Shown: positions 3,606 through 64,000 of the stretch, in pieces
How the letters are laid out: each line of letters begins with the position of its first letter
Numbering within the stretch: position 1 is the first letter of the stretch
Source: a phage
Sequence record: NC_129898.1
DNA: 64,000 bases
Reading direction: 5' to 3' (one strand)
The notes under the pieces: model-generated
Told to the model about the DNA's origin: nothing
The model's database searches: none
Seen by the model: the letters and a program-made list of their open reading frames with translations, nothing else
Position numbers and translations under genes: made by a program

Positions 3606-5673
3606 ATTCATGGCATCTGCATACAACCGTTTCGGTGAGCCAAACCCGAAAGCAACCAAATATAAAAGTGGGGGGAGTGTGAAACGAGACTATCGTGATG
3701 AAAAAGAGGTCGAAACTGTAGAGACTGTTTTAGAAAATACTAAAATTGTCCCTGTCCCACAACAAAATATCGGACTAATGGCTGCACAATACTTTGGTGT
3801 GCGATCAGCATTGTCTCAAGAAGATGGGGTAACGGTCACTGCAACATATTTCCCATATTACGACCGCTACGGTAATCTATCTGGCTTTAAAAAGCGCGAC
3901 TGGACAATCCCTAAAGAGCAAAGAGGCCATTTCTCAGTTGTTGGCATAGTAAAGGCCAACTCTCAGATGTTTGGTCAAAAGCTGTGTGCATCCTCCAACA
4001 ACCGCAAGCAGATTAACGTTTGTGAGGGGGAAGGGGATGTTATTGCAGCATGGCAAGCTGCATATCAGATACAAGTGAAAGGTATTCTCACCAATGCTAA
4101 AGCCCCCGCGAAGGTGAAGCAGTGGGCTAAAGAAGTTCAGGATGGGATCGATGCAGTTATCAACGGCGGCGATCTGGCAGGAAAACCCTGCCTGCCTTTT
4201 GTTGGAATTAACTGCGGGTGTGCAAACGCCGTAGATACTTTTGCTAACAATGAGAAATTTATCCGTAGCTACGGAACAGTGGTCCTTGCAATGGACAACG
4301 ATGCAGCTAACGAGGTAGAGAAGCAAAAACACGTTATCAAAGGTGTTGAGGCCACACATAATATCGCAGCATTTTTGATGGCTGATAACGTTTACCACGT
4401 GGAATACCCAGGTGAGGTAAACGACCCTGATGGTGTAAAAGATATTCGTGACATGCTGAAGGCTAAAAAGCTGGAAGATATTGTCAACATGTTCCGTCAC
4501 CCAGTTAAATATGTGCCCGATGCTGTATCTGATTTAGAAGACTTCTCCATTGAGTCTCTTCGTAAGAAGACTTCCAATGGCGTGGATATCAGTGCGGAGT
4601 TCCCTAAATTGCAGAAGATGCTGAAAGGGCTCCACAAAGGCACCTTGATGATGCTGACAGGTCCATCTGGCGGTGGTAAAACAACTGTAGCCAAGAAGCT
4701 GGAACACTGCATCGCAAGATACTTGATGGATCCAACATGCCCTAAAGCTGATGATTATGAAGAGGATGATCGCCTGTGTCTGATTCACCTTGAAGAGGAT
4801 CCTGAGGAAGCAATCAACTCTCTGTACGCTAACCAGTTGGGGTTTGATGTTAAAGAGTTTGTTGAAGACCCTAGTCAGTTCCTGACCGACCAGGAGCACG
4901 CTGAGATTCATCAATCTTGGGCCAAGGCCGGAAAAATCAAAGTGTTCAAGCATTTCGGCTCCATCCCTGTGGATGAGCTGATCACTAAGCTTAAACAAAT
5001 GGTGTGCCTGTATCACTGCCGTTACATTGTGCTGGATCACTTGTCTATGGTGATTTCAGGGCTTAATGTTAAGGATGAGCGCAAAGAACTTGACATGGCT
5101 ATGACCCAACTAGCTGCGTTCTGTAAGCAGTTTAATGTGTTTATCCTGGTGATTGCTCACCTGAAACGTACAGAGATTGTACCTCCTAAGGATAAGGATG
5201 GGAATCCGTTGCCTTTCTGGTACCCTGTACGAAAAGAGAACCTTCGTGGTAGTGCCGGATTGGAGCAACTCAGCTGGGTAGTTGTTGGGGTAGAAGCAGA
5301 AGAGATGGTGGATCGTTCTCGTGGGCGTGTCCGTCTAGTAGGTCTTAAAAACCGTCCAGCAAAAACGTTAGGTATTGCGGACACTTTAGTTATGGATCCG
5401 CACACAGGCAAGTTCCACGATGCCAGCAATTGGTACTGGGATAAAGAAATGCAAATGTTTACAGACGGAGAAGGTGGGGAGGTTGTTTGGAGACCTCAGG
5501 CTATGTTTGAGGATCAGGATCATGCAGTTGTGGAAACACCTATGGGCAAGGTTGTGGCTGATAAGGTTGTAACTCCTACTGTTACCCCAGTTGACACACA
5601 GGAAGACCTTCAGTATGATGATCCGTCCTCTAACCACGTTCCTGGTTTTGAAGACGACGAAACACCTTTTTAA
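3595..5673 (+). CDS. DNA primase-helicase (TOPRIM plus T7 gp4-like helicase)
   Basis: TOPRIM-like CEGEGDV and MDNDAANE; Walker A LTGPSGGGKTT; IVLDHLSMV like T7 gp4 helicase motif. Confidence 0.85.
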   Translation: MGSKFMASAYNRFGEPNPKATKYKSGGSVKRDYRDEKEVETVETVLENTKIVPVPQQNIGLMAAQYFGVRSALSQEDGVTVTATYFPYYDRYGNLSGFKKRDWTIPKEQRGHFSVVGIVKANSQMFGQKLCASSNNRKQINVCEGEGDVIAAWQAAYQIQVKGILTNAKAPAKVKQWAKEVQDGIDAVINGGDLAGKPCLPFVGINCGCANAVDTFANNEKFIRSYGTVVLAMDNDAANEVEKQKHVIKGVEATHNIAAFLMADNVYHVEYPGEVNDPDGVKDIRDMLKAKKLEDIVNMFRHPVKYVPDAVSDLEDFSIESLRKKTSNGVDISAEFPKLQKMLKGLHKGTLMMLTGPSGGGKTTVAKKLEHCIARYLMDPTCPKADDYEEDDRLCLIHLEEDPEEAINSLYANQLGFDVKEFVEDPSQFLTDQEHAEIHQSWAKAGKIKVFKHFGSIPVDELITKLKQMVCLYHCRYIVLDHLSMVISGLNVKDERKELDMAMTQLAAFCKQFNVFILVIAHLKRTEIVPPKDKDGNPLPFWYPVRKENLRGSAGLEQLSWVVVGVEAEEMVDRSRGRVRLVGLKNRPAKTLGIADTLVMDPHTGKFHDASNWYWDKEMQMFTDGEGGEVVWRPQAMFEDQDHAVVETPMGKVVADKVVTPTVTPVDTQEDLQYDDPSSNHVPGFEDDETPF

Positions 5674-38587: not shown

Positions 38588-38871
38588 TTTCTAGTCCCCT
38601 TCTTAGATTTTTGTGAAGAAACGCTTTCTGCAATACGAGACAGGCGTTCTTCTGAAGCTTTACCTACCCCAGGTTTCTTGAGCGGGTTATCTTTATGACC
38701 GCAATCCAATTGGATGCTAGATACCTCCCCAACCTTGTAAGTCAATTCTAGCAAAAGGTTGTCGTCCTTGTCAAATGTTTTTACGATAAATTTTTTATCG
38801 TTCTCCTGAACTTCATATCTGGTACCTGCAGTATACAGCATGGTGCCATCAGCATAGGATATCCAGATCAT
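38584..38871 (-). CDS. hypothetical small protein
   Basis: Overlapping start/stop. Confidence 0.45.
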   Translation of the reverse strand: MIWISYADGTMLYTAGTRYEVQENDKKFIVKTFDKDDNLLLELTYKVGEVSSIQLDCGHKDNPLKKPGVGKASEERLSRIAESVSSQKSKKGTRK

Positions 38872-39215
38872 TGAGCCTCCTTCTGCTGCAACAGCATTAA
38901 CTCTTTGTTGGAAATCTTTACTGCTGTCTTTATTGTTCCATCTTCACGGAACCACGACCAGAATTCTACAGTGTCACCACTATCAAGCAAGGCATGACCA
39001 TGGTAAAAATCCTTGTCCTTAGACAGTTTCTCATCTATATCTGCATCGACACATTCGTGATCCATAGCATTTTGCCTGAATGCATCGGTTATGCCAATGC
39101 ATGCCTTGCTCTCAAGACTGGCATATCCGATATCTTTTAATTCAGTTTCCCAAACCCAGAACCCTATAAAAGCCACAACAGCTACCCACATTAATATCGA
39201 TTTAATCTTTGACAT
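38868..39215 (-). CDS. hypothetical protein with N-terminal TM/signal segment
   Basis: ILMWVAVVAFIGFWVW hydrophobic N-terminus. Confidence 0.45.
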   Translation of the reverse strand: MSKIKSILMWVAVVAFIGFWVWETELKDIGYASLESKACIGITDAFRQNAMDHECVDADIDEKLSKDKDFYHGHALLDSGDTVEFWSWFREDGTIKTAVKISNKELMLLQQKEAQ

Positions 39216-39275
39216 TCTCTCTACCTCTTTCTTAATTTGTTTAATTATGGCACATCCTTTGTGCCTTGTTGCACA

Positions 39276-39746
39276 CTACTTAGACAACAGTTCAAAATAG
39301 TGCAAAATTAACAGAAGTTGAATTACGCCTAGCACAACGGCAAGTATGTTAATCTTAGAATCAAAAAACTTCTTAACTTTTACTCTAAAAGGTTCCTTAA
39401 TGTCCTTTACGATCCTATCTATAGATGACCTCATATCTCTGATTACCATCCTGAACATTAAAGACGGATGCTCCCCCATCTCTGTAACGGAATCGAAAAC
39501 ATACTCTCTTCGGTCATAAGGGCCGCCAGCTCTGCGTATTAACCTCTCCACAGAGACCTCGAACGTCACACCTGTAACGTAATCATCTATAACAAGTCGT
39601 GACGGGTCTTTACCTTTACTATCAAGAGGTATCAAAGTTATCTTTCCAGATTTTGTTAAAATTTCTCCTTTTTCAAGCAAGGTGTACCAATGCTCTCTAC
39701 CAAGATTGTTGAGGCACGTTTTTACATATTTAACAAACATCGTCAC
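39276..39746 (-). CDS. hypothetical protein with C-terminal TM anchor
   Basis: C-terminal ILAVVLGVIQLLLILHYF. Confidence 0.45.
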   Translation of the reverse strand: MTMFVKYVKTCLNNLGREHWYTLLEKGEILTKSGKITLIPLDSKGKDPSRLVIDDYVTGVTFEVSVERLIRRAGGPYDRREYVFDSVTEMGEHPSLMFRMVIRDMRSSIDRIVKDIKEPFRVKVKKFFDSKINILAVVLGVIQLLLILHYFELLSK

Positions 39747-39946
39747 CCCTTATCGCACGTCTGATATAACCATTCTATGAAATCTTGATACCACTCTCCC
39801 TCTGAGCGCTCCGTAGGCCAATAATCTTCCCCCTCTCTTGCATTAAAATCTGAGTATTCGACTTTCCACTCCTTTACCAGCTCGTGGAGAAGGTTTTCAG
39901 CCTGTTCTAAGGATTTATTTTTTGTCATTACTGTCCCCTTTTTCAA
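39743..39946 (-). CDS. hypothetical small protein
   Basis: Overlapping start/stop. Confidence 0.45.
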   Translation of the reverse strand: MKKGTVMTKNKSLEQAENLLHELVKEWKVEYSDFNAREGEDYWPTERSEGEWYQDFIEWLYQTCDKG

Positions 39947-40148
39947 GATAATTATACATCAGTGCCGCGCCACCCAAAATGGCTACTAGCAGTAATACTC
40001 CAGAGAGCATTTCAATAAACATGGCTTGAAACATTAGAAGGCCCCCTCTAATTTCACGCACCATTTTAAATACATACTCTTTTCCCATGAAGATGCTAAA
40101 CTAAGGTCTGTATAGAATGCAATCTCCCTAAGAACAGCATAAACAGTT

Positions 40149-40385
40149 TCAGGCACTGTTACCATTCTTATCTGCCTCCTTCATTTTCCTGACGGTTTTA
40201 CAGTGATCTACCAAGCACATAACCACAATGAAGAGAACAACAGGCCAAAAAGGTGCGGCAGTGATTATAGTTATAAAGTCGTCAAACTTAATTTTTCTAC
40301 AAGATATGATGCAAAGAGTTGCTAAAACAACCATTGTCAGAAAGGTCAATGCGCAATACCAAACCAGCACAGTGTCTATAGTCAT
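40149..40385 (-). CDS. hypothetical membrane protein
   Basis: Two hydrophobic helices. Confidence 0.45.
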   Translation of the reverse strand: MTIDTVLVWYCALTFLTMVVLATLCIISCRKIKFDDFITIITAAPFWPVVLFIVVMCLVDHCKTVRKMKEADKNGNSA

Positions 40386-60206: not shown

Positions 60207-61342
60207 ATTGCTCCAACATTTCTAAGAACATTAACAAGTTTTGTTTGGTCATTGAATGATCGCTTCATATACAAACAGTCGAAAATTATACTCATCCACT
60301 GACCTACGGAAATCCTACGGTCGATACCATTGAAATCAGTATACTTAACGGCACCTTTCGGAAACCATTTTTTATACTGATCAATGATTGCTAACCACAT
60401 CTCCTTCGGTGTGCTGCACTGAGACAGCAAGGAGAATGCAGATGCATCTCCAAACTTTCCTTTACCAATAAGCCCTTGGTAAGGCTTAATATTGTCAGCT
60501 GAGTCACCACATAGCATTTGATAACCGAAGAACAACATTCCATACCCACCAACATCTCCGTTTGGTTTCATGAATATGTTACCCATACCGTTATCAATAA
60601 GCATAGGAGTTTCTCTTACAAAATCACCTTTATCGTTCCTCATCGGATCGAATACAAGCCCAGGAAGTGTTCGCTGGTCCTTATCTATAGAGATAATAAA
60701 CTTGTTGAACTTACCTGTTTTCTGGTAGTGGTTCCAACCTTCAAATTGCTGGATAGCTAACCAGTCGTCAGCTTCAATACCGTTGATCACCTGAGCGTTA
60801 TACTGCTTTTGGAGATACTGTCTTGCATCTTCAAGCAACAGTGGTCGAAGAGTATTGTTACGGTTGGCTTTATATCGTTCCGGCATGGGAAGATCTAGTC
60901 TGAAATTACCTGTGCCTCCAAGCACTCCTACGCACCGATCTTCAGGAATACCAAGATAGTTAAGGACTGCGTTAGCTTTACACTTAATTGTGTGCAAGCA
61001 GTTCTCTACAGGATCAGGGGTTTGGATATCCAAGACATCGAAATCTTCACGTGTCCACGGAATAAACTCCTTGCCAGCTTTTTTACATGCAGCTTCACGG
61101 TTGGTGTTCTCAGCCTTTAACCAACCGCCAACTGCGTTCTTCTGCCTCCCCCAAAACTCTGTTCGTGTTTTGAACACCTTCTTACGTCCGGAGGCTTTAT
61201 GTGTTACCTCAATTGTCCTTTTTTCACAACTTGCTGCAGCTTGATATGCAACCTGATCGAAGTCATAATAAACTATAGCGTCAGGTTCAAGAAGATCAGC
61301 TAGACAATCTATGGACTCAATAAGTGGATATTCTCTACTCAA
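60203..61342 (-). CDS. 5'-3' exonuclease / flap endonuclease
   Basis: GIEADDW and GDSADNI motifs typical of phage FEN/5'-3' exonucleases. Confidence 0.75.
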   Translation of the reverse strand: MSREYPLIESIDCLADLLEPDAIVYYDFDQVAYQAAASCEKRTIEVTHKASGRKKVFKTRTEFWGRQKNAVGGWLKAENTNREAACKKAGKEFIPWTREDFDVLDIQTPDPVENCLHTIKCKANAVLNYLGIPEDRCVGVLGGTGNFRLDLPMPERYKANRNNTLRPLLLEDARQYLQKQYNAQVINGIEADDWLAIQQFEGWNHYQKTGKFNKFIISIDKDQRTLPGLVFDPMRNDKGDFVRETPMLIDNGMGNIFMKPNGDVGGYGMLFFGYQMLCGDSADNIKPYQGLIGKGKFGDASAFSLLSQCSTPKEMWLAIIDQYKKWFPKGAVKYTDFNGIDRRISVGQWMSIIFDCLYMKRSFNDQTKLVNVLRNVGAI

Positions 61343-61643
61343 AGACCCTCCTGTTAGTTACTCTGCAAGATGGTTGGATGCTGTAATGGAATGCATCATC
61401 ACTCTCTGCAATAAGCGACTCAACATCCCAATATTTTTCAAAAAGGAACGGATTAGACCCCCAGTGGTGGGTTATTTTCATCAAGGAGTCTGGTATCAGA
61501 TAACCAGAGATCTTAACTACATCACCAGGTTGAATTGTGTTTTCATGAAGGTTGCTTGCCTTCTTCAGGATCATACCTTTATGATTCTCGTTTGCATACA
61601 ACTGGACAATATCTTTATCTTCAACAATAAAAATTTTAAGCAT
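61335..61643 (-). CDS. hypothetical protein
   Basis: ORF in array. Confidence 0.4.
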   Translation of the reverse strand: MLKIFIVEDKDIVQLYANENHKGMILKKASNLHENTIQPGDVVKISGYLIPDSLMKITHHWGSNPFLFEKYWDVESLIAESDDAFHYSIQPSCRVTNRRVFE

Positions 61644-61702
61644 ACCTAGTTCTCCTAGTTTATAAATATCTGACTGATACTATCAGATTAATGACACTTT
61701 TG

Positions 61703-61996
61703 TCAAGACTTTTTAGTCTTCCTTGGAGAGCTTTTTGTTGATCTTTTCCGTTTGTGGTAGATTCCAAGTGCAGCGTTTTCTTGTGCGCACGTTTTAACAG
61801 TTCTCAGACAAGAACTTTCAGCTTTAGGCAGGTTTAACTCCCACCAACCAAGCCAGTAAAGTTCTGATTCAGACAACTGCTCAGATTCAGCCTTCCGATA
61901 CAATGATTGCATACCTCTAATAATGTCGTCCAGAGGCGTATCGAATACAAAAGCTGTCTTATCAAATTTCTCTTTTACAGGTTTCTTAGCCATCAA
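61703..61996 (-). CDS. hypothetical protein (basic C-terminus)
   Basis: ORF in array. Confidence 0.4.
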   Translation of the reverse strand: MMAKKPVKEKFDKTAFVFDTPLDDIIRGMQSLYRKAESEQLSESELYWLGWWELNLPKAESSCLRTVKTCAQENAALGIYHKRKRSTKSSPRKTKKS

Positions 61997-62450
61997 GGTA
62001 ACCCTCTATCCACGAAAAGTCAGTCTTCCATTCCGGAACTTTACTAAGCTCACGCCACTCTGCAAAGCAGTCTCGGTAATAGGCCTCTGCCATACCTTTA
62101 GTGATCTTATTCACCTTAGCCAACTGATTAACTGCCTGAGCATACTTCCCACGGATATTTGCTAACCCAGGGTGCACCGATGTGTGACAATCCGGGCACA
62201 GAGCTATCAGTCCGACAAGCCGGATCACCCCCTCTTCGAAGGTGTAAAGTTCATGACACTCCACAGGGTGTTTGCTACCTTTGCCGCCACACACCTCGCA
62301 AGTGTAGTTGGCCTCTCTGTAGCACTTCTTACGGATCTTATCCCACTCACTCTTCTTCACAGCGTTTCGGAGGTTATTATACCAAGCTGTTTCTGGGATC
62401 AGTTGTACAATAAGCCTGCGTTCAGACTTCATTAAACGTCCGTCTTCCAC
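61986..62450 (-). CDS. HNH-type nuclease
   Basis: CEVCGG...HPVECHE...LCPDCHTSVH HNH-like Cys/His spacing. Confidence 0.5.
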   Translation of the reverse strand: MEDGRLMKSERRLIVQLIPETAWYNNLRNAVKKSEWDKIRKKCYREANYTCEVCGGKGSKHPVECHELYTFEEGVIRLVGLIALCPDCHTSVHPGLANIRGKYAQAVNQLAKVNKITKGMAEAYYRDCFAEWRELSKVPEWKTDFSWIEGYLDG

Positions 62451-62459
62451 GTATCCTCC

Positions 62460-62666
62460 TCATTCAAAGAAATGGGTGCGAGGGCAGGAACCTGCCTCAC
62501 CTTGCTTCACAAGCTCATATAGCTCACCTTGGCTTGTCTCATAAAGGCAAATACGTTTACCATTGTCCCGATATACATCTACAAGGTACGCTGTCTCACC
62601 TGCAAACACGACACCACAGGCAAGGCATGCAGCCATGAACAAAATTGCCAACAGAAAATCTTTCAT
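62460..62666 (-). CDS. putative lipoprotein
   Basis: Signal peptide with lipobox-like LAC(G); directly after lysozyme gene. Confidence 0.45.
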   Translation of the reverse strand: MKDFLLAILFMAACLACGVVFAGETAYLVDVYRDNGKRICLYETSQGELYELVKQGEAGSCPRTHFFE

Positions 62667-62729
62667 AGTTAAATCCTCCTTAACATTCTATGAGGTAACA
62701 ATACCACGTCCGTGTGGTCATGTCAATGA

Positions 62730-63200
62730 TTAATCTAGGACAACACCGCCTGACTTTTTAAACACCTCGATCAACTTTTCGATCTTCTGTTCGTGCTGAC
62801 CGTACCCTGCACCTGGAAGGCTTGCCCATCGAGATCTGCAAAGATGGATGGCCTGGTGAATACGACCTTCATCAATATCATCGAGCGCCTTACACTCACG
62901 GATCAGTTGCAACGCAATCTTGTCCTGACTGGCAGGGCCAAAATCTGGTAATCCTAACTGTTTCATATAGTGTTTAGCAAACTTCTCCAGAATCTGGTAA
63001 CGCCCAGCAGCAGAGGAGGTAAGTTTAGCATTTAGCTTAACGTAAACACCTGGATGCTTACTGTAATCGCTAAACAGCTTGCCCCCGACTATGACATCGT
63101 AGCCCCGATCCTTGGTAGGTTGTCTACCATTATCTGTACCTTCTGAATATGCGATCATATCCAAGAAAGCTTTTCGTTGAACATTTTTATCAAGTTTCAT
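62730..63200 (-). CDS. endolysin, lambda R-type lytic transglycosylase
   Basis: QRKAFLDMIAYSEGTDNGRQ...GYDVIVGG...AGRYQIL...WASLPGAGYGQ closely matches lambda R. Confidence 0.9.
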   Translation of the reverse strand: MKLDKNVQRKAFLDMIAYSEGTDNGRQPTKDRGYDVIVGGKLFSDYSKHPGVYVKLNAKLTSSAAGRYQILEKFAKHYMKQLGLPDFGPASQDKIALQLIRECKALDDIDEGRIHQAIHLCRSRWASLPGAGYGQHEQKIEKLIEVFKKSGGVVLD

Positions 63201-63341
63201 TTTTCATACTCTCCAGTTCACTCATAACGAGCCCTGATCAGCACGTGGCTAGGTTGCACAGTGCATACATCAGGGCATATGTAGGTGCCAATTGAAAACA
63301 CTCATTCAATTGGCTACCGTTATCTACTAAACATACCTACA

Positions 63342-64000
63342 CTATTCCAGAACATCCCAAGTGTCTGGATTAACATTTCGGACGCAGATACCGACAGGGA
63401 ATTGGTAGTTGTTGTCTTCTGTCCTTGCTTGATATTTAAAGGTGACAAACTTGCCGATCATTTCCTGCATCCTGCTATAGCTACGCTCCTCGTGCGTGCC
63501 TTTCATCTTCATTTTAACAACGATGCCTTCCTTGTCAACGCAGATAAGAACACCCTCATCATTCTTATCTTTCTCAACGTCAATAACTTTCACCTCTGCG
63601 TCGTTGAACTTTTTCCATTTCAATGCTTCAGATGTTCGCTGACCGTATTCGTATTTACCACAGAAGTTACGCATGATAGTACCTTCATACCCTTCGGACA
63701 TGAATACACCAACAGATTCTTCGCAATGATCAACTGTGTACGCAATCTCTGCGTCAACAACCTTGATATGGTCAAGCATCAGAGTGGTAATGGTATCTTC
63801 TGCATCCATAAGATCCTTGCAGCGTCCAGACTCTGTTTCTGGATCCCACCACACCTTGTCACTAGGGATATCAAAAATGTGATACTCTAAGTCATAGCTA
63901 CAGTACCCTCCGTAACGCAAATCATCACGAACAGGCTCAACATCAACAGGAATATCTACCTTATTGAAGTTTTTGTATGTTGATAAGCCTGCCTTAATTG
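63342..64000 (-). CDS. ATP-dependent DNA ligase (3' portion; gene continues past window end)
   Basis: Motif IV-like EGYEGTIMR and motif V-like LKWKKF; frame stays open upstream of 63920 to the window edge. Confidence 0.6.
   Translation of the reverse strand, partial: IKAGLSTYKNFNKVDIPVDVEPVRDDLRYGGYCSYDLEYHIFDIPSDKVWWDPETESGRCKDLMDAEDTITTLMLDHIKVVDAEIAYTVDHCEESVGVFMSEGYEGTIMRNFCGKYEYGQRTSEALKWKKFNDAEVKVIDVEKDKNDEGVLICVDKEGIVVKMKMKGTHEERSYSRMQEMIGKFVTFKYQARTEDNNYQFPVGICVRNVNPDTWDVLE

What the first reader, a model, noticed from the sequence alone, without database searches (positions are those of the whole stretch)
62460..63200. Lambda R-type lysozyme inside the replication module, followed by a lipoprotein, with no holin seen
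The lysozyme is flanked by ligase and nuclease genes, as T7 places its lysozyme among DNA-metabolism genes. The downstream 68 aa ORF has a signal peptide with a lipobox-like LAC, so it might be an outer-membrane spanin-like lipoprotein or a surface exclusion protein. No holin or inner-membrane spanin partner is evident in this window.
Basis: partly seen in the sequence, partly recalled or inferred. Interest (0 to 1): 0.35.

Follow-up and report, generated by a model that had tools for sequence, protein, structure and literature searches.

The report
rV5-type endolysin plus small secreted protein
This is the already described endolysin gene of an rV5-like E. coli phage, and the small gene after it most likely encodes an exported periplasmic protein of unknown role, not a lipoprotein or spanin, so the finding is largely ordinary.

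Summary
The window comes from an rV5-like Vequintavirus (94-97% nucleotide identity to more than 100 GenBank phages). ORF 62730-63200 (-) is the rV5 gp89 endolysin. It matches phage lambda R over its full length (E = 2e-56) and is 96% identical to LysECP26, which has been purified and shown to be active.

Its position between the ligase and nuclease genes was described in 2013. So was the scattered layout of the lysis genes.

The 68-aa ORF 62460-62666 (-) is rV5 gp90. It is a real gene under strong purifying selection, with its own conserved sigma-70 promoter.

The lipoprotein/spanin reading fails:
- In 119 homologues, 92 have no cysteine before the conserved core.
- All 119 have a signal peptidase I-type site just before that core.
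- The mature part of about 46 aa has exactly two cysteines and a CPxxH motif.
- The true i-/o-spanin pair of this phage group lies about 10 kb beyond the right end of the window.

A published but unproven holin candidate (rV5 gp129) is inside the window at 40149-40385.

gp90 homologues in other phages and in small E. coli elements are not next to a lysozyme, so the adjacency looks specific to this lineage. The function of gp90 is still unknown. My best guess is an early periplasmic accessory or exclusion factor.

The parts
62730..63200 (-). Endolysin, lambda R-type (GH104-like lytic transglycosylase), 156 aa; orthologue of rV5 gp89 and LysECP26. Soluble, with no TM or SAR segment.
   Evidence: phmmer to 1AM7/3D3D, E = 2e-56. 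phrog_90 endolysin. 96% identical to the ECP26 lysozyme, which has been purified and is active (PMC9728275). Not flagged in the hydropathy scan.
62460..62666 (-). 68-aa ORF, the rV5 gp90 orthologue (phrog_4641, unknown function): precursor of a small exported protein.
   Evidence: phrog_4641, 4e-28. rV5 table lists gene 90 as 68 aa, pI 4.8. 15-17 synonymous versus 0 nonsynonymous differences to L003/ECP26 in the mature part. AlphaFold2 mean pLDDT 82: N-terminal helix plus four beta-strands.
62601..62666 (-). Predicted Sec signal peptide (residues 1-22, MKDFLLAILFMAACLACGVVFA), with a signal peptidase I-type site VFA|GE.
   Evidence: Rule-based. K2 forms the n-region. The hydrophobic stretch runs 4-22 (KD 2.74). 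The (-3,-1) small-residue site is conserved in 119 of 119 homologues. Cysteines are not conserved.
62463..62600 (-). Mature domain of about 46 aa. Invariant T-x2-L-x-D-x-Y, C-x-Y and C-P-x2-H motifs; two conserved cysteines (C40, C61), presumably disulfide-bonded in the periplasm.
   Evidence: Alignments A2/A3. Exactly 2 Cys in every mature sequence and CPxxH in 116 of 119. The disulfide is inferred.
62698..62726 (-). Sigma-70 promoter for gp90 (= rV5 P090): TTGACA (62726-62721), 17-nt spacer, TGgTATTGT extended -10 (62706-62698).
   Evidence: Consensus scan 10/12 plus TG. Listed as P090 in rV5 Table S4. The -35 and extended -10 are invariant in 9 relatives although the spacer sequence differs completely between the two allele groups.
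62675..62680 (-). Shine-Dalgarno AGGAGG, 8 nt upstream of the gp90 ATG.
   Evidence: Read directly from the sequence.
61986..62450 (-). HNH (homing-type) endonuclease, rV5 gp91 orthologue. Its RBS overlaps the gp90 stop codon, so it is probably co-transcribed from P090.
   Evidence: phrog_5200, 2.4e-72; sequence.
63342..64000 (-). C-terminal part of the ATP-dependent DNA ligase (rV5 gp88 orthologue); runs off the end of the window.
   Evidence: PF14743/PF01068; phrog_114; annotation in relatives.
40149..40385 (-). Published but unverified holin candidate (rV5 gp129 orthologue): 78 aa, two TMDs, basic C-terminus, 22 kb downstream of the lysozyme on the same strand.
   Evidence: Hydropathy scan. 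rV5 paper and Table S3. PHROG gives only unknown function. [quoted passage not shown]

Best explanation
The region holds two separate genes of an rV5-like Vequintavirus.

(1) Endolysin. This is a soluble, cytoplasmically accumulated lambda R-type endolysin. It degrades peptidoglycan once a holin encoded elsewhere opens the inner membrane. The spanin pair that completes lysis lies about 10 kb beyond the right end of the window, so the lysis genes are scattered as in T4.

(2) gp90. This is a separate transcription unit with its own host-type sigma-70 promoter. Its 68-aa precursor is exported by Sec and most likely cleaved by signal peptidase I after VFA22. That would release an acidic beta-protein of about 46 aa, probably disulfide-bonded, into the periplasm. 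It is not a lipoprotein and not a spanin.

Its most likely role (inferred, not shown) is an accessory periplasmic factor made from early in infection that acts on the host envelope. It could be a superinfection-exclusion or envelope-protecting protein. It is probably not a component of the lysis machinery.

Shown: identity, gene reality, promoter conservation, absence of a conserved lipobox, lack of conserved linkage to a lysozyme. Inferred: export, cleavage site, disulfide, timing, function.
For: Endolysin:
-, plus PMC9728275.
- The window is a Vequintavirus.
- Gene order and naming match rV5 genes 88-94.

Spanins elsewhere:
- PMC6139136 lists rV5 with a 'separated' two-component spanin at rV5 60871-61554.
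- No homologue is in the window.
- The o-spanin is present in 118 related records. In phiWec191 it lies about 10 kb beyond the ligase side.

gp90 is a real gene:
- 0 nonsynonymous versus 15-17 synonymous changes.

gp90 is not a lipoprotein:
- 92 of 119 homologues lack any Cys before the core, and only 4 have even a permissive lipobox.
- All 119 have an AxA-type site within 4 residues of the core.

Own promoter:
-.

Independence from the lysozyme:
- In Serratia phage Kashira the homologue sits in the same ligase-to-exonuclease module, but the GH104 endolysin is 13 kb away.
- Certrevirus-like contigs have no lysozyme within 4 kb.
- Contigs of about 137 kb carry a homologue in the structural module.
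- A complete 20.7-kb E. coli element carries a homologue and no GH104 lysozyme.
- In L003, gp90 is 100% identical while the lysozyme is only 51% identical.
Against: - No dedicated signal-peptide or lipoprotein predictor was available; the cleavage call is rule-based.
- The hydrophobic stretch is fairly long (median 21 uncharged residues), so an uncleaved signal anchor cannot be excluded. Several GenBank records call the protein 'putative membrane protein'.
- In the window's own allele, Cys14 (MAAC) is a permissive lipobox match, so lipidation of this allele alone is not strictly excluded.
- Within Vequintavirus-like genomes the lysozyme-gp90 pair stays adjacent in two different local gene orders. 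This could reflect a functional link.
- No homology or fold match gives any function.
- No expression data were found.
Confidence: 0.7

Rival explanations
1. gp90 is a periplasmic inhibitor of lambda-type (GH104) lysozymes or lytic transglycosylases. It would be analogous to T4 Spackle or bacterial Ivy, protecting the infected cell from muralytic enzymes of superinfecting phages or buffering leaked endolysin.
For: - It is directly downstream of the lysozyme in all Vequintavirus-like loci examined, in two different gene orders.
- It is predicted to be periplasmic.
- The small protein is acidic (pI 4.8) and the lysozyme basic (pI 9.3).
- The CPxxH motif is conserved in 116 of 119 members. From memory, this faintly recalls the CKPHDC inhibitory loop of Ivy.
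- Kashira also encodes a GH104 endolysin.
Against: - Adjacency is lost outside the genus.
- A complete 20.7-kb element has the gene but no GH104 lysozyme.
- The gp90 and lysozyme alleles assort independently (L003).
- There is no sequence or fold similarity to Ivy, PliC, MliC, PliG or Spackle.
- gp89 is not marked as a virion protein in the rV5 table.
Confidence: 0.13
2. gp90 is an outer-membrane lipoprotein: an o-spanin-like or Llp/Cor-like exclusion lipoprotein.
For: - The window allele has two Cys in the signal region.
- 'MAAC' at Cys14 fits a permissive lipobox pattern.
- The size is similar to lambda Rz1 and T5 Llp (from memory).
Against: - The cited 'LAC' has Cys at -3, which is non-consensus.
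- 92 of 119 homologues have no Cys before the core. These include the MKT allele group found at the same genomic position.
- No i-spanin partner is adjacent.
- There is no C-terminal TMD, so it is not a unimolecular spanin.
- A canonical spanin pair exists elsewhere in these genomes.
Confidence: 0.04
3. gp90 is a lysis-timing regulator: an antiholin-like periplasmic domain, as in T4 RI.
For: - It is a small protein predicted to be periplasmic.
- It is next to the endolysin.
- The holin of this phage group is unidentified.
Against: - The only holin candidate (40149-40385) has two TMDs and just a loop of about 9 residues between them, so it has no periplasmic domain to bind.
- Homologues occur in elements with no obvious lysis genes nearby.
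- It has its own sigma-70 promoter, separate from the lysozyme.
Confidence: 0.08

Closest known systems
Phage lambda R (PDB 1AM7/3D3D) and rV5 gp89 / LysECP26
   Same: - Full-length alignment to lambda R (E = 2e-56) with the catalytic-Glu SEGT motif kept.
- Same length, with no signal or SAR domain.
- 96% identical to LysECP26, which lyses outer-membrane-permeabilised Gram-negative bacteria.
   Different: - It is not in a holin-endolysin-spanin cassette as in lambda.
- It sits between the ligase and an HNH endonuclease gene.
- Transglycosylase chemistry was not tested for this orthologue.
T4 arrangement of lysis genes (e, t, rI, pseT.3/pseT.2 scattered)
   Same: The endolysin, the putative holin and the spanins lie at three distant loci. 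The rV5 authors draw the same comparison.
   Different: The proteins are not homologous to the T4 ones, and the holin is unproven.
T7 gp3.5 lysozyme
   Same: Only the position among DNA-metabolism genes.
   Different: T7 gp3.5 is an amidase that binds T7 RNA polymerase (established knowledge). Here the enzyme is lambda R-type, and the phage uses host-type promoters.
rV5 gp66/gp67 separated two-component spanin (Kongari et al. 2018)
   Same: This is the true spanin system of the phage group. Its o-spanin has a canonical lipobox (LLCG|C; in Kashira LAG|C).
   Different: gp90 has no similarity to it, no conserved lipobox and no partner gene. The spanin pair is outside the window.
T4 Spackle / bacterial Ivy (periplasmic lysozyme inhibitors); T5 Llp and Cor (exclusion lipoproteins)
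   Same: These are small exported phage or bacterial proteins that act in the periplasm. They are functional analogies only.
   Different: No sequence or fold similarity was detected. Llp and Cor are lipoproteins, and the gp90 family is not.

Membership tests
Lambda R-type endolysin (GH104-like lytic transglycosylase) | Full-length sequence homology to lambda R | tested here: met
   phmmer E = 2.2e-56, residues 4-154 against 3-153 of 1AM7.
Lambda R-type endolysin (GH104-like lytic transglycosylase) | Catalytic glutamate (lambda Glu19) conserved | tested here: met
   AYSEGT aligns with AWSEGT of lambda R. That Glu19 is the catalytic residue is taken from memory of the lambda lysozyme literature.
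Lambda R-type endolysin (GH104-like lytic transglycosylase) | Soluble, holin-dependent (no signal or SAR segment) | tested here: met
   No 19-residue window with KD >= 1.6 in this ORF.
Lambda R-type endolysin (GH104-like lytic transglycosylase) | Muralytic activity | not testable with these tools
   The 96% identical orthologue LysECP26 is active in vitro (PMC9728275).
o-spanin (Rz1-like outer-membrane lipoprotein) | Lipobox with an invariant lipidated Cys | tested here: not met
   92 of 119 homologues have no Cys before the conserved core. 1 has a strict lipobox match and 4 a permissive one.
o-spanin (Rz1-like outer-membrane lipoprotein) | Partner i-spanin gene embedded, overlapping or adjacent | tested here: not met
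   The neighbours are the lysozyme and an HNH endonuclease. There is no i-spanin homologue in the window.
Unimolecular spanin (T1 gp11 type) | N-terminal lipobox plus C-terminal TMD | tested here: not met
   Only one hydrophobic segment (residues 4-22); the C-terminus is polar.
Sec / signal peptidase I secreted protein | Basic n-region, hydrophobic h-region, small residues at -3 and -1 | tested here: met
   The window allele has K2, F4-F21 and VFA|G. All 119 homologues have a (-3,-1) site within 4 aa of the core and at least 1 K/R before the h-region. This is rule-based only; no SignalP or LipoP was run.
Known periplasmic lysozyme inhibitors (Ivy, PliC/MliC, PliG, Spackle) | Sequence or fold similarity to a family member | tested here: not met
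   No Pfam or NCBIfam hit. PDB profile search best E = 0.53. Foldseek against the PDB gave no hit with E <= 0.001.
Holin (for the candidate at 40149-40385) | Small membrane protein with TMDs and a charged C-terminus | tested here: met
   78 aa, TMDs at about 11-29 and 40-58, C-terminal KTVRKMKEADK.
Holin (for the candidate at 40149-40385) | Homology to a known holin family, or adjacency to the endolysin | tested here: not met
   phrog_10061, unknown function. No NCBIfam match. It lies 22 kb from the lysozyme.
Holin (for the candidate at 40149-40385) | Timed membrane permeabilisation that releases the endolysin | not testable with these tools

The most novel reading that the evidence does not exclude
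The gp90 family has at least 261 members with E <= 0.01. They occur in Vequintavirinae, in other myophage contigs of about 137 kb, and in circular E. coli elements of about 9-20 kb. The family could be an undescribed class of small Sec-exported, disulfide-stabilised periplasmic phage effectors with the motifs T-x2-L-x-D-x-Y...C-x-Y...C-P-x2-H. In Vequintavirus it might specifically neutralise lambda-type lysozymes or transglycosylases, or block an envelope step of superinfecting phages. That would be a Spackle- or Ivy-like activity with a new fold.
Probability: 0.2. Interest if true: 0.5.

Novelty: already known. Interest (0 to 1): 0.15.

Why it matters
It matters little for lysis biology. The endolysin, its odd position and the missing holin were all reported for rV5 (2013) and LL12 (2019), and the spanins were catalogued in 2018.

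The useful outcome is a correction. The small ORF should not be annotated as a lipoprotein, a spanin or simply a 'membrane protein'. It belongs to a widespread, strongly conserved and completely uncharacterised family of small exported phage proteins.

If that family proved to be an exclusion factor or an inhibitor of muralytic enzymes, it would be relevant to phage-phage competition and to the design of Vequintavirus-based therapeutic cocktails.

Tried and rejected
- Pfam, NCBIfam and PHROG scans of gp90 gave only phrog_4641, unknown function.
- Pfam gave no hit for the lysozyme either. Its identity rests on the PDB and PHROG matches.
- A profile search of PDB sequences with alignment A3 found nothing (best E = 0.53).
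- Foldseek with the AlphaFold2 model (pLDDT 82) gave only generic small beta-barrel matches with E >= 0.06 against the PDB. Against BFVD it found only itself and other uncharacterised proteins.
- The hmmsearch of 1.84 billion representatives found five small secreted relatives. It also found spurious repeat-protein hits (P0013, P0016, P0017), which I discarded.
- A literature search for Vequintavirus transcriptomics returned nothing usable.
- Megablast of the L010 context against phages gave no match.
- I considered an AlphaFold run of a lysozyme-linker-gp90 fusion.
- The T7-like regulatory lysozyme idea was rejected: the enzyme class is unrelated, and the phage is predicted to use host-type promoters.

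Full report
**What the window is.** Megablast of 61000-64000 finds 123 phage records, 112 of which cover at least 80% of the query. Identity is 94-97% for the best records and 90-99% for nearly all. They belong to Vequintavirus, the rV5-like myophages of E. coli. Gene order and gene sizes match rV5 genes 88-94 exactly. In rV5 these are ligase (88), lysin (89, 156 aa), an unnamed 68-aa ORF (90, pI 4.8), HNH endonuclease (91), two small ORFs (92, 93) and the 5'-3' exonuclease (94). All of them lie on the minus strand of the window.

**The lysozyme.** ORF 62730-63200 (-) aligns over residues 4-154 with phage lambda lysozyme R (1AM7, 3D3D) at E = 2e-56, and keeps the SEGT motif that contains the catalytic glutamate. 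It matches phrog_90 'endolysin' at 5e-55. My hydropathy scan found no hydrophobic segment in it, so it is a soluble, holin-dependent enzyme like lambda R. It is 96% identical (149 of 156 residues) to the lysozyme of phage vB_EcoM-ECP26. That protein, LysECP26, has been purified and lyses Gram-negative bacteria once the outer membrane is permeabilised (PMC9728275). The current Pfam copy gave no hit, which is why the identity rests on the PDB and PHROG matches.

**All of this is already published.** Kropinski et al. 2013 (PMC3606486) name gp89 as the lysin. They note that no holin homologue exists. [quoted passage not shown] Kongari et al. 2018 (PMC6139136) classify rV5 as having a 'separated' two-component spanin at rV5 coordinates 60871-61554, and give the sequences for the rV5-family member 2_JES-2013.

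**Where the other lysis genes are.**
- tblastn with those spanin sequences finds nothing in the window.
- The o-spanin is present in 118 related phage records.
- In phiWec191 the match has the same orientation as the window. The o-spanin there lies about 9.7 kb past the position that corresponds to the right end of the window.
- The gp129 orthologue is inside the window at 40149-40385 (-), 22 kb downstream of the lysozyme. It has two hydrophobic segments and a KTVRKMKEADK tail.
- PHROG and NCBIfam give the gp129 orthologue no function, so it remains only a candidate.

**The 68-aa ORF is a real gene.** It matches phrog_4641 (unknown function) end to end. An AGGAGG sits 8 nt before its ATG. It is under strong purifying selection. 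Against the L003 and ECP26 alleles, the 46 mature codons carry 15 and 17 synonymous differences and no nonsynonymous ones.

**It is not a lipoprotein.**
Only Cys14 (MAAC) fits a permissive pattern.
- The close homologues fall into two allele groups at the same genomic position. One is MKDFLLAILFMAAC... and the other is MKTLWAVFISAMMFASGSAWS|GD..., and in almost all members of the second group the leader has no cysteine.
- A profile search of 1.84 billion representatives, followed by a second word-index search, enlarged the family to 261 proteins.
- Of the 119 sequences in hand that carry the conserved core, 92 have no Cys before the core. Four have a permissive lipobox and one a strict one.
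- All 119 have exactly two Cys in the mature part.
- All 119 have small residues at -3 and -1 within four residues of the core. Typical sites are AEA|SR, AEA|AR, AYA|AR, AHA|SQ and, in the window, VFA|GE. All also have at least one K/R before the hydrophobic stretch.
- This is the signature of a Sec signal peptide cut by signal peptidase I.
- By contrast, the true o-spanins of the group have canonical lipoboxes: LLCG|C in JES-2013 and LAG|C in Kashira.

**The mature protein.** It is about 46 aa, with invariant T-x2-L-x-D-x-Y and C-x-Y motifs, and C-P-x2-H in 116 of 119 members. AlphaFold2 gives an N-terminal helix followed by four beta-strands, with mean pLDDT 82. An uncleaved signal anchor cannot be excluded, because the hydrophobic stretch is fairly long.

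**gp90 has its own promoter.** A sigma-70 match starts 4 nt after the lysozyme stop codon: TTGACA, 17 nt, then TGgTATTGT. It corresponds to promoter P090 in the rV5 paper. Across nine relatives the -35 hexamer and the extended -10 are invariant, although the spacer sequence differs completely between the two allele groups. That is a phylogenetic footprint of a functional promoter. The HNH gene's ribosome-binding site overlaps the gp90 stop codon, so gp90 probably heads an operon distinct from the lysozyme.

**Is gp90 linked to the lysozyme?**
- Within Vequintavirus-like genomes the pair is always adjacent (L003-L007). This holds even in L004-type genomes, where the pair sits between a phosphoesterase gene and the RuvC-like gene rather than after the ligase.
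- The alleles assort independently. In L003, gp90 is 100% identical to the window's copy while the lysozyme is only 51% identical.
- Outside the genus the linkage disappears. In Serratia phage Kashira the homologue lies in the same ligase-to-exonuclease module, but the GH104 endolysin (53% identical) is 13 kb away.
- Certrevirus-like contigs have no lysozyme within 4 kb.
- Uncultured myophage contigs of about 137 kb carry a homologue in the structural module, after a protein of 1,700-2,063 aa.
- A complete 20.7-kb circular E. coli element, pRHB39-C22_4, carries a homologue but no GH104 lysozyme.
- gp90 therefore behaves like a mobile accessory gene. Its adjacency to the lysozyme is best read as lineage-specific.

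**Function.** No database or fold search gives a lead, and neither gp89 nor gp90 is marked as a virion protein in the rV5 table. My best-supported reading combines three observations: export to the periplasm, a host-type promoter separate from the lysozyme, and moron-like distribution next to tail or early genes in other elements. On that basis gp90 is most likely an accessory periplasmic factor that acts on the host envelope, for example in superinfection exclusion. This is inference.

The rivals, with my estimates, are:
- a Spackle- or Ivy-like inhibitor of lambda-type muralytic enzymes, about 0.13;
- an antiholin-like lysis regulator, about 0.08;
- the lipoprotein/spanin reading, about 0.04.

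**Verdict.** The only open item is the unknown function of the gp90 family.

Noticed in passing
window 63511-63538 (-): A very good sigma-70 promoter match inside the ligase coding sequence: TTGACA, 16 nt, TAAAAT, 11/12 plus extended -10 TG. It lies about 310 nt upstream of the lysozyme start and could drive lysozyme transcription. It is not in the rV5 promoter list.
   Followed up: no
window 63201-63341 (-): The ligase-lysozyme spacer contains two inverted repeats: CCAATTGA...TCAATTGG, and GCCCTGAT..(30 nt)..ATCAGGGC. Neither is followed by a T-run. The second is shortened or absent in AlexBoehm and ECP26.
   Followed up: partly
window 38868-40385 (-): A cluster of small predicted membrane proteins surrounds the published holin candidate: 40149-40385 (2 TMDs), 39915-40088 (1 TMD), 39276-39746 (C-terminal TMD; PHROG 'virion structural protein') and 38868-39215 (N-terminal TMD). 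It may be a membrane or lysis-control module.
   Followed up: partly
GenBank MG0656xx records: Twenty records named 'Campylobacter phage' (about 135-141 kb) match this E. coli Vequintavirus region, at about 93% identity in the two records listed. They also carry the rV5 o-spanin. The host labels look doubtful.
   Followed up: no
L017 (CP057043.1, 20,690 bp circular 'plasmid' of E. coli); L010: gp90-family genes are common on circular E. coli elements of about 9-20 kb. These elements encode a tyrosine recombinase, an antirepressor, an HNH endonuclease, a Dit-like tail protein and a lambda Kil-like peptide, and mostly hypothetical proteins. Their nature (satellite or phage-plasmid?) is unclear.
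   Followed up: partly
L013-L015, positions 4001-4261: In uncultured myophage contigs of about 137 kb, a gp90-family gene (86 aa) sits in the structural module. It lies just after a protein of 1,700-2,063 aa and a 94-aa ORF, and before an AAA_33 kinase and the head-tail adaptor. This placement recalls exclusion genes that sit next to receptor-binding protein genes.
   Followed up: no
L016 1751-1969 (phage ECP26) against window 62450-62460: ECP26-type relatives carry an extra 72-aa ORF (an insertion of about 200 bp) between gp90 and the HNH endonuclease gene. It is absent from the window.
   Followed up: no
window 61335-61996 (-): Two small ORFs (97 aa and 102 aa) are annotated as 'transposase-like' in many records, and one matches phrog_14449 'transposase'. 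They have no Pfam transposase domain, so the label is probably an annotation artefact.
   Followed up: no
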